Assembly (NCBI GenBank): GCA_031835245.2
Contig: JAVKOQ020000033.1
Location: 186,001-250,000 of the forward strand
Origin: Balamuthia mandrillaris
Taxonomy: Eukaryota
Length of the DNA: 64,000 nucleotides
Reading direction: 5' to 3'
Shown piece after piece: positions 20,481 to 25,495 of this stretch (position 1 is the first letter of the stretch; each line of letters starts with the position of its first letter). Under the pieces are notes generated by a model. It saw only the letters and a list, made by a program, of their open reading frames with translations. It searched no databases and had not been told where the DNA came from. The translations under genes were made by a program, and so were the position numbers.

Positions 20481-20646
20481 ATGGTGTTCTTACGAGGCTC
20501 AAAAGAGCCAAAAGACAAGAACGAAGGAACTAAGGTTACACAAGAAATGTGGCGCAAGTTGAACAAGAAAGAAGAAGCAAAGCTTCCACGGGGTTTGTTG
20601 TTGTCCTGTTGCCTGTTCTTCTGCTTTTTTGCTAGTAGTAGTTCTG

Positions 20647-20693
<47 letters not shown>

Positions 20694-23600
20694 TGTAAAA
20701 ACAAAAATGGAGAATAACGAAAACGATTCAAAAAAAAAGTTGCAGCGGAGGAGTTTCATTTGTCGGTGTTGGCCACTGGCAATACTCTTGCTCAGGTGCT
20801 GCCTGTGGATGCCCTCGGGGCGGCCTGCCCTCCCTCCCGAACGGAAGCGTGCATTGGTGGTATCGCCAGGTGCGTTTCTCTCCCTCTCTTCCTCTCACTC
20901 TCCGTTCTTTTCTGCGTTCTTTTCCTCTTCTCTGTTGCGACGTGTGACGGTGTGTTAGGAGAGCAACAGCAATCGAACAAGTGAGGGCAGAGGAGGAGCA
21001 CACCTTGCTCCTAGAGGCCGGAAGTCTTTTTCAAGGTTTGTAACACTCAAAACTTTGCGTAGTAGTAACTCTCCTTTTTTATTTTTTAAAAAAACAAACA
21101 TTTTTATGTGCAAAGGTTCTTTGTATTATTTCCTGTTTGAAGGCGAAGAGTTGGCCTTCTACTACCGACGTCTTGGTTTGTACCCCTCTTGTTGTGCTTT
21201 GTTTGTTTTTGTTTGTGCTGCCCTACTTCTCCCTGCTTTGTTTTGTTTATCATTCTTGCTTCGCTTCTTGCTCTATCCAACAGGCTATGATGCAATTTGT
21301 CTGTCGCTGAGAGAGTTTTTTTCTGGGATTGACATTGTACTTCTTCTTGTTCTTGTTCTTGTTCCTGTTCTTGTTCCTGTTCTTCTTCTTGTTCTTCTTC
21401 TTCTTGTTCTTCTTCTTCTTCTTCTTCTTCTTCTTCTTCTTGTTCTTGTTCTTCTTGTTCTTGTTCTTCTTCTTCTTCTTCTTCTTCTTCTTCTTCTTCT
21501 TGTTCTTCTTCTTCTTCTTCTTCTTCTTCTTCTTCTTCTTCTTCTTCTTCTTCTTCTTCTCTCTGTCTCTTTCGCTCGCTTCCACCCTCTCTGACGTGGA
21601 TCAAATTTTGTTTTATTTTGCCAACAAAGCTATCAAGGTTCATAGACGAGTCGGGGGTTGTGGTGGTCAGCGCCAATCTCGATGTCTCAGGCGAAGAGCG
21701 GTTGGTCGGCAAAGTGAAGCCGTACCACATCTTTCCTGTTGGCAACCACAGCGTTGGCTTCACTGGAGAAATTGATCCGTTGGTCACTCGAGGAGGTTTG
21801 TCTTGCTCTTTTACATGTGACGGAGATATGTTAAAACACAGTCTACACAATAGGAGTATCAGAGGCTGGAAACGTAACCACCATCTCTTCTGTTGAAGGC
21901 ATTCGTTTGGCTGTTGCTGCCATGTTGGATAAAGGAGGTACTTGTTTTATTGGTGTTTAACCACTTGTTCTTGTAAAATTGGCCTGTGGCACTGATTTTG
22001 TTTTGTTTAACGCAGTGGACAAAATAATAGTGGCGGTGACAACAAGAGACAAAACACTGGTCTCCACCATCCAAAACCAGATCTACGGCATCGACCTCAT
22101 CATTGCCTCCAATGTTGACGTGGTCGATGAGGAAGAGCTCATTCCTTCACGATCACGGACGCCTTGGAGATCTTCGATTGGTTTCATGGAGACAGGGACA
22201 TTTGGCCGAGCTTTGGCCAGAGTGGATCTGGACTTCAACAACAAAGGGCTCATCACTTCTCTTTCTGGAGGTCCCATTTTGTTGGACTCCTCCATCCTGG
22301 AGAACGCAACAATCCAGGTAAGATACACTTCATTTATTTTTTTATTTTTTTTAATGAATAACTGCCAATGGTAAAATGTGAATGACAGGCAGATGTGGAG
22401 GAACGATATGAGTTGATCGAAGAAGCGTTTGGAGTGACGATAGGGTTTGCCACAGCGGAGTTCCCATGGGTTCGTGATGACTACTGCTATTTTCAGGAGT
22501 GTGAGCTTGGAAACTTTGTGACGGATGCAATATTGGCTTACACCAAGACGGGAAGCTTTTCCATTCCAGCTCAGATTGCTGTGGACAATGCTGGTGCCGC
22601 TGGGTTTGTGCCCTTTTATTTCATTTCCCTTTGTTCTCTTATCATTTCTGCTGCTGAAAATTATTTTCTTCGGTACAGTGCGGCAATACCAGCAGGAAAC
22701 ATCACACTGGGAACCATTGTCTCTGCATTCCCTTTCCACGTTACGGATACCCTGTCTGTTGTTTCCCTTAGAGGAGCAACTTTATGGAAAGCCATGGAGA
22801 ACAGCGTGGCTGAGGTAAGTCCTCATTACAACCCAAGCGTTCTGATGTTGAAGCAACAAGTCCATCACAAAAGGCAACAAATAGGGAGGTGCCTTCTGGG
22901 CGGTTTCTTCAAGTGTCTGGGTTGCATGTGGCTTGGAATCCTGATCAACCTGTTGGTCAACGCATCATCCACTTAGAGCTTCAGGTCTGTTTGCTATTTC
23001 GTTTTGTGTAGTAATGATTGAGTGACGATATTGATGATTTCGTTTCGTGTTTCAGAGGGAAGATGGAACCAGGACTCCAATCCAGAACGAAGGGACTTAC
23101 ATCGTGGCCATGCAAAGTTACCTCAGAGAAGGAGGAGACAACTTCACCATGTTCCGCGAAGATGTTCTCTCAGCTGCTGACCAAGGCCCCACTCTAATTC
23201 TGGTTCGTTTGCTCTTCTCTGTATATTTCCTTTCTCTATTTGGGGCTTTGTATTATCTGTTGTTTGGGTGATGTAATCTTATCCATCTTCGTTTGCACTA
23301 CAGCCAATAACAGAAGCGTTAAAGGTGCAAAAAAGAATCACACCAAGCATCCAAGGACGCATTGTGACCACATCGGAGGTCAGAACAAACTCTGAGGACA
23401 AGTCGGATGAGGACCTCAGCGATGAGAACATTGCGCTCATCGCTGCACTTGTTCCAACTGCCTTCATTTGTTTGTTGTTGTTGGCCTTTGGGGTGATTGG
23501 TTTGTGGGTTCGCAATCGATACAACAGCAAACGGCATCGAATCCAGTTGAAGCAACCCAACTTCAAAGAAATCACTTTTGCTGATACTTCAGCGTACCTT

Positions 23601-24282
23601 ACCCACTGCCCTTCTCCCTCTCTTTCTCCCTCCCGTCCCTCCCTCCCTCACTCTCTTTCTGATACCTTTGCTTTCCTTTTTTTTTTTTTGACGTTTCATC
23701 GTTACACTTTTCCGTTCATCTCATATTCCTTTCTTGTTTTACCCTAGTATCGATAAAGTAAAGGCTCCAGGAATAGGTTCTCCAGCACGACTGGATGTCT
23801 TTGAAAAGGTTCTGCTCCGTTTTTTCTCGTTTTCAAGGGAAAACAATAATGCTGAAGTAAAATGATATCTCATGATAACAGGTGATAGTGGACCCTTGTC
23901 TCATACAAGCGCTGTATGAAAGTGCCCCGGACAGAGAGCATTGGCCAATGCTCTCCAATGCTTTGGTCTGCGTGCACGCCACTGCTGTTCACTCCCCTGC
24001 TCATTTCGTGCTTCAACTTCTCTTGTTGGACCTTGATGCATCCAGTAAGTTCCCCTTATTTTTTTTTTTGCCACATATTGAATCTGATATGCAATGCTTG
24101 CAAACGACAGCCAACCAAGAGACCCTGTTGAGAGAAGACACATTGGCAACATTTTGCTTTCAGAACTTTGCTCGCACCGTCAGCCTTCCCTTTTTGTGGT
24201 CCACCTTTGCTTTCACCTTTGCTGAGCTTTATCGCAATTCCATTGAAAGCACCAAGAGACGGTTCCTTTTTGCCCTCTCTCC

Positions 24283-24319
<37 letters not shown>

Positions 24320-25495
24320 ATGTTTTGTCCATTCACGGGAATGACAGTCAGTGTGCGTGCAGGATCAGCGAGGAGACAGGAGAGGAGACACCAGGATACA
24401 ACATGTCCTTGCTTTCCTTGGACACATCCATGATGGAGATCAATGATGAGAAGATGGAAGAAGGAGGGGATGAAGACATCAACAAGCTGCAGCTCCATCT
24501 CCTGGTGCACAAGCTCTTCCTCCTCATCATTCGCTCCGTGGATCGCTTCCCCAAGCAGCTGCGATGGATCTGCAAGGAGCTCCAGCAGAGGAATCCCGAT
24601 GCCAAGGAGAACAGCGTCACTCTGGCCAACCTGATCTTCCTTCGGTTCATTTGTCCTGCATTCGTTCTCCCTCACCACTATGGCCTTTTGGATGGTTCTC
24701 TCCTTCCGTTCTCCTCTCTCTCTCTCTCTCTCTTCATCTTTTCTTCTTGCCTCTTTCCTCTTTGTTCTCTGGAGATTGTTGGTTTGAAGGATTGACTCCT
24801 TTTCAAACTGCTGGTTGGGCGGAATTGCAGCACCTCCTCCAACGAACATGCAACGGCTGTTGATCCTCATCTCCAAAGTGTTGCAGAATCTGGCCAATGG
24901 GGTGCAGTTTGGGGAGAAGGAAAGCTTCATGACCAAGATGAACGAGTTCATCAAGACCAACGAGAGCAAGATGGAGGGCTTCCTGCAACATCTGGCAGAG
25001 TACGATGCGGAGGAACCAGCCTGTGGAGATCCTCCTTCCTCCATTCCTCCAAAGGCTCTTCGCAAGGCAGCATTGAACGCATTGGATTGGTACGTGGTGG
25101 ATGAGAAAGGAGAAGAGATTCTGGATTCGTTGAGTGACATGGAGAACAACGAGGCTCAGGTTTGGCTTTTTTTTATCTCCTTTTTTTTCTTCTTGTTGTT
25201 ATTTTTTCCCTGCTTGTGTGTGCATTTGTCTTTTCTGGTGGGTGGTATTTCTTTGGGGTGTGGCTGATGCCAAAAGGACCCAACAAAACAGGAAACGTAC
25301 AGTCGAGTGCATTTCCTGCGATCAGGAAGCGCCTTGTTGCGAAGTTCCGACATGGTCTCGCTTGGATTTGCAGTCGACAGTCCCCACAAAAGCAAAGCAG
25401 AATCCAGCAAAGAGGAGCAAAAGAAGAACAAGGCCCGCACGACGCGCAACGGCAAACGGCGAAAATCGGCCAAGCATACAAAAGGCAACCATTGA
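20481..25495 (+). CDS. Single-pass membrane protein: signal peptide, degenerate 5'-nucleotidase ectodomain, TM helix, cytoplasmic RasGAP; spliced
   Basis: 5'-NT-like motifs: CIGGIAR, LLLEAGSLFQG, VVSANLD, ECELGNFVTDAI, GRFLQVSGL, GGDNF, PSIQGRI. TM: IALIAALVPTAFICLLLLAFGVIGLWV then RNR. GAP: TLLREDT, IFLRFICPA, LISKVLQNLAN. The start codon could instead be the ATG at 20547. Confidence 0.85.
21340..21560 (+). repeat. (TTC/TTG)n intronic microsatellite
   Basis: Inside an intron of the 5'-NT-RasGAP gene. Confidence 0.95.

What the first reader, a model, noticed from the sequence alone, without database searches (positions are those of the whole stretch)
20481..25495. Receptor-type RasGAP with a catalytically dead 5'-nucleotidase (CD73/UshA-like) ectodomain
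Seen in sequence: one spliced gene encodes a signal peptide, both 5'-nucleotidase domains, a TM helix with positive residues on the inside (same exon as the 5'-NT C-terminal PSIQGRI), and a RasGAP. The GAP keeps the arginine finger (TLLREDT), FLRFICPA and KVLQNLAN. Compared with the established 5'-NT consensus, every metal or catalytic motif is lost: HTNDxH->ATGNTL, DAGD->EAGS, GNHE->SLRE, xHxG->VTTR and GGHS->ASNV. Inference: this is a pseudo-enzyme sensor that couples an extracellular ligand directly to Ras inactivation, analogous in topology to plexins but independently assembled. I do not know this architecture as a characterised system; it is the best candidate in the window.
Basis: partly seen in the sequence, partly recalled or inferred. 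Interest (0 to 1): 0.87.

Follow-up and report, generated by a model that had tools for sequence, protein, structure and literature searches.

The report
Dead-nucleotidase receptor wired to RasGAP
One expressed amoeba gene joins an outer 5'-nucleotidase domain that has lost its whole catalytic metal site, a predicted single membrane helix and an inner Ras-switch-off (RasGAP) domain, so it is likely a surface receptor that links a small outside molecule, possibly a nucleoside, directly to Ras; neither ligand nor activity has been tested.

Summary
Confirmed. A 19-exon gene (window 20547-25495, 1036 aa, Balamuthia mandrillaris-type) encodes a predicted signal peptide, a complete two-lobed 5'-nucleotidase fold, one transmembrane helix and an NF1/p120-like RasGAP with its arginine finger. 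RNA supports 13 of 18 introns directly, and one RNA contig runs from the nucleotidase C-lobe through the TM exon into the GAP. All six metal ligands, the catalytic His and both phosphate-binding Arg are replaced. The base clamp and ribose-binding residues are kept, and the ectodomain is under purifying selection.

It is not a one-off. The ectodomain belongs to a clade of dead nucleotidase domains (99/99 support) that also sit on class C GPCRs and giant-virus receptor kinases. This scan noted that module earlier on other DNA, and the 5_nucleotid_C+7TM pairing is in print. The GAP belongs to a large protist family of single-pass RasGAPs with swapped ectodomains, including PSI/IPT plexin-like and periplasmic-binding-protein types, which ten paper searches did not find described. 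The exact fusion occurred only in two Balamuthia proteins.

Best reading: a ligand-gated receptor GAP (about 0.5). Ligand, direction of control and Ras/Rap specificity are untested.

The parts
20547..25495 (+). Whole coding region, 19 exons: 20547-20646, 20740-20869, 20959-21035, 21116-21175, 21284-21336, 21630-21795, 21854-21937, 22016-22317, 22389-22603, 22679-22814, 22874-22984, 23056-23202, 23304-23593, 23748-23808, 23882-24044, 24111-24261, 24363-24694, 24831-25159, 25292-25495; 1036 aa
   Evidence: open frame, GT..AG; colinear with P0001; RNA joints
20481..20546 (+). In-frame upstream ATG and 22 codons; alternative start, probably 5' UTR
   Evidence: used by P0189, not by P0001; 1-base insertion at 20534 in 1 RNA contig only
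20547..20744 (+). Predicted signal peptide, aa 1-35
   Evidence: hydrophobic stretch, helix 16-29 in the model; inference, no signal-peptide predictor run
20745..22421 (+). 5'-nucleotidase N-lobe (metallophosphoesterase fold) plus hinge helix, aa 36-335. At CD73 positions D36, H38, D85, N117, H118, H220, H243, N245 it has N48, L50, S99, L131, R132, T233, N256, D258
   Evidence: Pfam Metallophos not hit; fold intact
22422..23378 (+). 5'-nucleotidase C-lobe, aa 336-552. Kept: base clamp F415/Y500 (CD73 F417/F500) and ribose binders N391/D506 (N390/D506). Replaced: phosphate-binding R354 (Y358) and R395 (G396)
   Evidence: PF02872 E 6.9e-36; residue roles from PMC8677862 passages
23379..23426 (+). 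Acidic extracellular stalk, aa 553-568 (7 D/E, 2 K/R in P0001)
   Evidence: low pLDDT
23427..23510 (+). Single transmembrane helix, about aa 569-596, followed by 5 K/R and no acidic residue in the next 16 aa
   Evidence: hydropathy peak 2.76
23511..23766 (+). Juxtamembrane segment with the family motif (LKQPNFKEITF; relatives L-x-E/Q-P-D-Y)
23767..25342 (+). Continuous RasGAP domain, about aa 631-986: arginine finger R706 (24131), FLRFICPA R843 (24643), KVLQNLAN K875 (24875)
   Evidence: PF00616 E 8.4e-26; family profile vs NF1 E 8e-58 and p120GAP E 5e-56
25343..25492 (+). Disordered, basic C-terminal tail, aa 987-1036
   Evidence: pLDDT under 50

Best explanation
This is a single-pass surface protein whose outer part is a catalytically dead 5'-nucleotidase fold and whose inner part is a RasGAP with its arginine finger, and it likely works as a ligand-gated receptor GAP in which a small molecule, most likely a nucleoside or purine-like compound, would bind the retained C-lobe pocket. 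Shown: one spliced, expressed gene; a complete two-lobed fold; loss of the metal, catalytic and phosphate-binding residues; retention of the base and ribose residues; purifying selection; membership of a dead-nucleotidase receptor-ectodomain clade and of a TM-RasGAP family. Inferred: the ligand stacks between F415 and Y500 and is held by N391 and D506. Binding would shift the open/closed rotation of the lobes (up to 114 degrees in CD73). Because the moving N-lobe is far from the membrane, the shift would probably act through a change in dimer or cluster state. The conserved juxtamembrane motif would then pass it to the GAP, changing local Ras-GTP. By analogy with Dictyostelium NF1, the cellular output would be control of Ras patches that set feeding-cup size or cell steering. 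Whether ligand switches the GAP on or off is unknown.
For: Single transcript across C-lobe, TM and GAP. Fold: Z 43.0, rmsd 2.1 A over 499 residues to CD73 7jv8_B; mean pLDDT 84.3. Purifying selection: 28 of 39 listed ectodomain differences between strains are synonymous, against 24.5% of sites expected (only the differences shown were used). Ectodomain clade: 11 of 12 dead receptor ectodomains form one clade at 99/99 with the motif columns removed, and this protein is sister to Luapelamoeba class C GPCR ectodomains at 96/92. Among hits with all six columns filled, 10 of 10 domains joined to a signalling module keep at most 2 of 6 metal/catalytic residues, while 10 of 120 other domains keep 3 or fewer. 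Within the dead set D506 is kept in 14 of 14, while H38 is kept in 0 of 13, N117 in 0 of 13, H220 in 0 of 10 and H243 in 0 of 12. GAP family: 59 of 77 hits have a hydrophobic helix just before the GAP, and 25 of 27 TM-GAPs group together (SH-aLRT 97, quick tree). Endostelium members carry periplasmic-binding-protein ectodomains, a precedent for small-molecule sensing. CD73 residue roles: PMC8677862 passages. RasGAP control of feeding cups: PMC4374526 passages.
Against: No ligand, GAP activity or coupling has been measured. The dead domains are one clade, so the 10/10 count is about two independent events, not ten. The base-clamp residues are also structural, and the viral members of the clade vary in them, so pocket retention does not prove binding. 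The CD73 pocket also binds pyrimidines, caffeine and riboflavin, so the ligand class is loosely defined. R132 at the catalytic His position, shared with 3 relatives, could still contact a phosphate. The GAP is divergent: it keeps 26 of 35 family-conserved positions, and its finger loop reads LRED (FRED/LRED in 6 of 64 domains) instead of FRxN. Most TM-RasGAP relatives carry adhesion-type ectodomains (LamG, PSI/IPT, Ig, EGF), not small-molecule sensors. Inter-domain arrangement in the model is unreliable (pTM 0.58).
Confidence: 0.5

Rival explanations
1. The dead nucleotidase is a structural or adhesive ectodomain: it binds a protein, glycan or prey surface, or only sorts and anchors a constitutively active GAP at the plasma membrane, and no small molecule gates it.
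For: Most family members have adhesion-type ectodomains (LamG, PSI/TIG, SibA-Ig/cadherin, EGF, disintegrin). Both phosphate arginines are lost and the pocket varies across the clade. An acidic, low-confidence stalk separates ectodomain and TM.
Against: The same dead domain sits on class C GPCRs, where the ectodomain is normally the ligand sensor, and on receptor kinases. Basal 7TM members and paralog P0036 keep all six C-lobe nucleotide residues. D506 is invariant in 14 of 14.
Confidence: 0.25
2. The outer part senses, but the inner part is not an efficient RasGAP: it acts on Rap (as plexins do) or is a weak, Ras-GTP-binding scaffold.
For: Acidic finger loop LRED and 9 of 35 departures from family consensus, including K to F at 713. 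Long branch in the GAP tree. Plexin GAPs act on Rap1/2 (PMC6374515 passage).
Against: R706, R843 and K875/Q878/N879 are all present. The domain is continuous and NF1/p120-like, and no plexin was among 13 PDB hits. Only 5 of 356 GAP positions differ between strains.
Confidence: 0.15
3. The ectodomain keeps some non-canonical hydrolase activity, or binds metal through other residues, so the protein is an ecto-enzyme fused to a GAP.
For: The fold is complete and predicted in the closed form, and polar residues (N48, S99, N256, D258, E133) remain near the site.
Against: 0 of 6 scored canonical metal/catalytic residues, plus T at the H220 position. No Pfam Metallophos hit at E up to 1. No strain difference restores a ligand. 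RNA shows no alternative joint among the listed ones.
Confidence: 0.05
4. Two neighbouring genes (a membrane-anchored dead nucleotidase and a RasGAP) fused by gene prediction.
For: No single RNA record spans the entire gene; introns 9 and 10 have no listed joint.
Against: In-frame GT..AG joint from the TM exon into the next exon in a contig and in 2 raw reads of another run. A paralog has the same order of domains (P0036). The juxtamembrane motif typical of TM-RasGAPs lies in the TM exon.
Confidence: 0.02

Closest known systems
Ecto-5'-nucleotidase CD73 (NT5E) and bacterial UshA / Thermus 5'-nucleotidase (PDB 7jv8, 4h2i, 2z1a)
   Same: Two-lobed fold over about 500 residues (Z 43.0, rmsd 2.1 A; E 4e-54 to 2z1a); base clamp and ribose residues kept.
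   Different: All metal ligands, the catalytic His and both phosphate Arg are replaced; it has a TM helix and a cytoplasmic GAP rather than a lipid anchor or soluble form (anchor recalled).
Neurofibromin (NF1) and p120GAP catalytic domains
   Same: Continuous RasGAP domain with arginine finger, FLR motif and KxLQxxAN.
   Different: Integral membrane protein with an ectodomain; no CRAL-TRIO/PH, SH2/SH3 or C2 Pfam hits; acidic finger loop.
Plexins
   Same: Single-pass receptor whose cytoplasmic part is a Ras-family GAP; relatives in the same TM-RasGAP family carry PSI and IPT/TIG repeats.
   Different: No Sema, PSI or IPT domain in this protein; GAP not split by a Rho-binding insert (plexin definition from PMC6374515 passages); predicted small-molecule rather than semaphorin ligand.
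Class C GPCRs with a 5_nucleotid_C ectodomain (Capsaspora, PMC3251606; choanoflagellates, PMC12716839) and giant-virus 5'-nucleotidase receptor kinases (Cedratvirus, Pandoravirus database annotations)
   Same: By my tree, the Luapelamoeba, Chloroparvula and viral ectodomains are the same dead clade as this protein. The published Capsaspora and choanoflagellate sequences were not in my set.
   Different: Output is a RasGAP through one helix, not a 7TM bundle or kinase/cyclase. The passages I read name only the Pfam C-terminal domain and do not mention a dead N-lobe or a ligand.
Unnamed protist single-pass RasGAPs (Acanthamoeba P0014, Gocevia P0165, Thecamonas P0194/P0237/P0241, Endostelium P0247/P0248, Anaeramoeba P0244, Balamuthia P0192/P0225)
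   Same: TM helix, juxtamembrane motif in most members, and related GAP.
   Different: Other ectodomains; the nucleotidase type was seen only in P0001 and its paralog P0036. None was found described in my paper searches.

Membership tests
5'-nucleotidase (CD73/UshA) enzyme | Two-lobed metallophosphoesterase + 5_nucleotid_C fold | tested here: met
5'-nucleotidase (CD73/UshA) enzyme | Dimetal ligands D36, H38, D85, N117, H220, H243 and catalytic H118 | tested here: not met
   N48, L50, S99, L131, T233, N256, R132; the ligand list is partly recalled, and these columns are near invariant in the 121 canonical domains
5'-nucleotidase (CD73/UshA) enzyme | Phosphate-binding R354 and R395 | tested here: not met
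   Y358 and G396; roles from PMC8677862
5'-nucleotidase (CD73/UshA) enzyme | Base clamp F417/F500 and ribose binders N390/D506 | tested here: met
   F415, Y500, N391, D506
5'-nucleotidase (CD73/UshA) enzyme | AMP hydrolysis | not testable with these tools
   needs an enzyme assay
RasGAP (NF1/p120 type) | PF00616 domain above the curated cut-off, homologous to NF1/p120 | tested here: met
   91.6 bits vs cut-off 28.3
RasGAP (NF1/p120 type) | Arginine finger, FLR arginine, KxLQ motif | tested here: met
   R706, R843, K875/Q878
RasGAP (NF1/p120 type) | GAP activity and Ras versus Rap specificity | not testable with these tools
   needs biochemistry
Plexin | Sema-PSI-IPT ectodomain | tested here: not met
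   The whole ectodomain (aa 36-552) is nucleotidase fold; no such Pfam hit
Plexin | GAP domain interrupted by a Rho-binding domain | tested here: not met
   One continuous Pfam stretch, aa 689-882 over profile 4-207; continuous alignment of the family profile to NF1
Plexin | Single-pass topology with cytoplasmic Ras-family GAP | tested here: met
   Hydropathy and charge bias; topology is predicted
Plexin | Common ancestry of the TM-GAP unit with plexins | not tested
   No plexin sequence was in my trees
Protist single-pass RasGAP family (unnamed) | TM helix just before the GAP plus juxtamembrane L-x-E/Q-P-x-Y/F motif | tested here: met
Protist single-pass RasGAP family (unnamed) | GAP falls within the TM-GAP clade | tested here: met
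   25 of 27 TM-GAPs at SH-aLRT 97 in a quick tree with several long branches; inner branching unresolved
Dead-5'-nucleotidase receptor ectodomain clade (unnamed) | Monophyly with GPCR- and kinase-linked dead domains, motif columns removed | tested here: met
   11 of 12 rows at 99/99; Platysulcus P0161 unresolved (58/40 for all 12); no AU test run
Dead-5'-nucleotidase receptor ectodomain clade (unnamed) | Ligand binding | not testable with these tools
   no member was found assayed in my searches

The most novel reading that the evidence does not exclude
Protists have an undescribed, widespread class of 'receptor RasGAPs' that signal from outside the cell straight to Ras without a kinase or heterotrimeric G protein, and plexins are the one animal offshoot of that class. 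Balamuthia has fitted it with an enzyme-derived Venus-flytrap sensor, making a direct purine/nucleoside-to-Ras switch that tunes feeding or steering towards prey or host cells.
Probability: 0.25. Interest if true: 0.9.

Novelty: new variant of a known kind. Interest (0 to 1): 0.7.

Why it matters
Receptors that carry their own Ras-family GAP are known essentially from plexins (my knowledge; PMC6374515 places plexin origin at the choanoflagellate-animal ancestor). This gene leads to a much wider family of such receptors in Amoebozoa, Apusozoa and Anaeramoeba, with interchangeable ectodomains. If the dead nucleotidase senses a nucleoside, it is a new purinergic receptor design and one of the shortest possible routes from an outside metabolite to Ras. 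It also makes the question of how feeding amoebae tie outside cues to Ras patches directly testable, since the ectodomain can be expressed and screened. In a pathogenic amoeba, a surface receptor with no matching human architecture is also of diagnostic or drug-target interest.

Tried and rejected
No whole genome is held for this window, so paralogs could not be counted and the missing N-lobe of paralog P0036 could not be examined; its metal site is unknown. My first gene model used a wrong acceptor for exon 11 (22861) and went out of frame; 22874 fixed it. Exon 2 acceptor 20746 was replaced by 20740. The run search listed no indexed RNA holder; added raw RNA runs gave only 22, 42 and 1 laid reads, so expression level cannot be judged. 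The whole-protein word search missed P0036, which the HMMER search found. ESM Atlas gave only leads under 0.9. The viral fold search returned giant-virus nucleotidase and GAP entries but no full-length match. The Fisher test (P 7e-10) is rejected as evidence because the dead domains are one clade. Signalling labels came from Pfam scans of 28 chosen hits, not all 150. The hydropathy scan of all rows showed no clear case of a canonical nucleotidase followed by an internal TM and a signalling tail (P0061, with a hydrophobic stretch between two nucleotidase parts, was not resolved). Paper searches with no relevant hit: (0 papers each; 9 listed; 20 of 89 listed; 15 of 919 listed), the last three judged from listings. 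Supplements: the PMC4053784 file had no RasGAP or plexin hit; the PMC4758236 file could not be searched; the PMC4374526 file was 627 characters with no hit; PMC12716839 supplementary file 12 was not read. These, and subscription journals that are not in the library, may bear on novelty. Neighbouring genes were considered as partners and rejected as unrelated.

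
Full report
What is there. The window is eukaryotic and intron-rich. Translation and splice-site listing gave a 19-exon model with GT..AG introns and no internal stop. An exon-8 search returned one protein, P0001, an NCBI Balamuthia mandrillaris record with PF02872 and PF00616. From Met 20547 the window model has the same length, 1036 aa, and differs from P0001 at 38 positions, so P0001 is another strain or haplotype. 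A second NCBI model in the same cluster (P0189) starts at 20481 and may not be independent of this window.

Is it one transcript? Laying public runs gave 12 listed intron joints of 18. One 1517-nt contig carries exon 12, the TM exon and the GAP exons. The TM-to-GAP joint 23593>23748 is also in 2 raw reads of another run. A second contig covers exons 1-9, and its internal spacing fits my exon lengths. Intron 11 is supported by a loose end in 4 reads; introns 9 and 10 are unconfirmed. In DNA runs of other strains the listed indels lie in introns, apart from one in-frame 3-base deletion in the last exon (15 further indels were not shown).

Ectodomain. phmmer against the PDB aligns aa 24-552 to Thermus 5'-nucleotidase (E 4e-54) and CD73. 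The AlphaFold2 model (76 rows, mean pLDDT 84.3, pTM 0.58) matches CD73 7jv8_B at Z 43.0, rmsd 2.1 A over 499 residues, and fits closed-state entries better than open ones. At CD73 positions D36, H38, D85, N117, H118, H220, H243 and N245 the protein has N, L, S, L, R, T, N and D. In passages of PMC8677862, adenine stacks between Phe417 and Phe500, ribose binds Asn390 and Asp506, and phosphate binds Arg354 and Arg395; the lobes rotate by up to 114 degrees. Here F415, Y500, N391 and D506 are kept, but both arginines are gone (Y358, G396). That points to a nucleoside or base rather than AMP, with two cautions: the same pocket in CD73 accepts many flat molecules, and R132 could contact a phosphate. 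The domain is not decaying: 28 of 39 listed strain differences in the ectodomain are synonymous, against 24.5% expected (partial lists), and no difference restores a metal ligand.

The dead domain is a shared receptor module. HMMER over 1.84 billion representatives (best 150 seen) gave as closest single-domain ectodomain match P0035, a Luapelamoeba hula class C GPCR (38%), which shares N and L at D36/H38, R at H118 and G at R395. Other dead copies sit on 7TM receptors of Chloroparvula and Platysulcus, and on TM-kinase(-cyclase)-kinase proteins of Cedratvirus and Pandoravirus. Of domains with all six scored columns filled, 10 of 10 joined to a signalling module keep at most 2 canonical residues, while 10 of 120 others keep 3 or fewer (rows with gaps dropped); two of those ten are fragments clustering with such receptors. 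With the motif columns removed and a site-mixture model, 11 of 12 dead receptor domains form one clade at 99/99; Platysulcus is unresolved; this protein is sister to the two Luapelamoeba GPCR domains at 96/92 (31 rows chosen from 201). Clade-specific residues include Y118 (12 of 13 vs 0 of 121) and W274 (10 of 13 vs 0 of 117). So catalysis was probably lost once, and the domain was then reused on three kinds of signalling output.

The GAP belongs to a receptor family. The cytoplasmic domain passes Pfam RasGAP. A family profile aligns it continuously to NF1 and p120GAP, with no plexin among 13 hits. R706, R843 and KVLQNLAN are present. A search with the Gocevia relative gave 77 proteins, 59 with a hydrophobic helix just before the GAP. 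Their ectodomains are LamG, PSI/TIG, SibA-type Ig/cadherin, EGF, disintegrin or periplasmic-binding-protein. Named sources include Acanthamoeba, Balamuthia, Gocevia, Endostelium, Thecamonas and Anaeramoeba. 25 of 27 TM-GAPs group at SH-aLRT 97 in a quick tree; P0001 pairs with P0036 at 99. P0036 is a second Balamuthia protein with 5_nucleotid_C, TM and RasGAP (36% identity). Its model lacks the N-lobe, and its C-lobe keeps all six nucleotide residues. No other protein with both domains appeared among the best 150, where a double match should rank near the top; relatives above 50% identity are collapsed in that library. Against full GAP activity: 26 of 35 family-conserved positions are kept, and the finger loop is acidic.

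How it likely works. Shown: a single-pass architecture (topology predicted), a dead catalytic site, a retained base/ribose pocket, and intact GAP motifs. Inferred: a nucleoside-like ligand shifts the lobe equilibrium; oligomer state or helix packing changes; the juxtamembrane motif relays this to the GAP; local Ras-GTP changes. Passages of PMC4374526 show that Dictyostelium NF1 limits Ras patches and feeding-cup size through its arginine finger, which is the most plausible output. I put this chain at 0.5, an adhesive or anchoring ectodomain at 0.25, a Rap-directed or weak GAP at 0.15, residual enzyme at 0.05 and a gene-model artefact at 0.02.

What is known. The 5_nucleotid_C + class C 7TM pairing is mentioned in PMC3251606 (passage) and PMC12716839 (section 9 read); neither passage mentions a dead N-lobe or a ligand. 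PMC4053784 describes receptor cyclase-kinases of Acanthamoeba and giant viruses; its main text has no hit for 'RasGAP' or 'nucleotidase' (passages). PMC6374515 places plexin origin at the choanoflagellate-animal ancestor and has no hit for Amoebozoa, Thecamonas or amoeba (passages). PMC4758236 has one RasGAP mention, a photoreceptor (passages). Searches for transmembrane or receptor-type RasGAPs returned 0 papers. The scan's own notes, seen only after my trees, describe the dead-nucleotidase ectodomain on diatom GPCRs, a protist kinase and euglenid cyclases. They agree with my reading but are not independent support; none of the notes shown concerns a RasGAP output.

Verdict. Real, expressed and selected. 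Not a working 5'-nucleotidase by sequence, and not a plexin, but it works topologically like a plexin. It is a new combination of two modules, each poorly described. Novelty: new variant of a known kind (GAP receptor). Interest 0.7, lowered from 0.87 because the sensor module has been seen on other receptors and all function is untested, and held high because the receptor-RasGAP family appears undescribed.

Noticed in passing
Proteins P0150, P0165 (Gocevia fonbrunei), P0237 (Thecamonas trahens), P0198, P0199, P0203 and others: Plexin-like receptors outside Holozoa: an unassigned N-terminal region, PSI and IPT/TIG repeats, one TM helix and a RasGAP. The plexin-origin paper PMC6374515 does not mention these lineages. 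They may bear on plexin origin.
   Followed up: partly
Proteins P0247, P0248 (Endostelium zonatum), P0251: TM-RasGAPs with periplasmic-binding-protein (Venus-flytrap-like) ectodomains and a FRED finger loop like this protein's LRED.
   Followed up: partly
Proteins P0056, P0060 (Cedratvirus), P0062, P0092, P0267 (Pandoravirus japonicus): Amoeba giant viruses carry receptor kinases whose ectodomain is the same dead nucleotidase clade, with a further eroded pocket.
   Followed up: partly
Proteins P0122, P0107, P0118, P0121: A separate group of degenerate nucleotidases that keep the C-lobe nucleotide residues; P0122 joins one to a kinase, a TM helix and an FGE-sulfatase domain. It is an independent loss of the metal site.
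   Followed up: no
window 24847-24880 (loose ends in runs X1, X2, X3): Contigs that match the KVLQNL motif and then continue differently: a paralogous RasGAP gene, resembling P0036 at this motif.
   Followed up: no
window about 17600-20150 (+): Upstream spliced gene that by recalled motifs looks like an IlvD/Edd-family sugar-acid dehydratase of bacterial type; no link to the receptor.
   Followed up: no
window about 25770-28200 (+): Downstream gene that by recalled motifs looks like a cysteinyl-tRNA synthetase, starting under 300 bases after the stop.
   Followed up: no
window 21337-21629: Intron 5 (293 bases) is largely a CTT/GTT microsatellite, and reads are skipped there.
   Followed up: no
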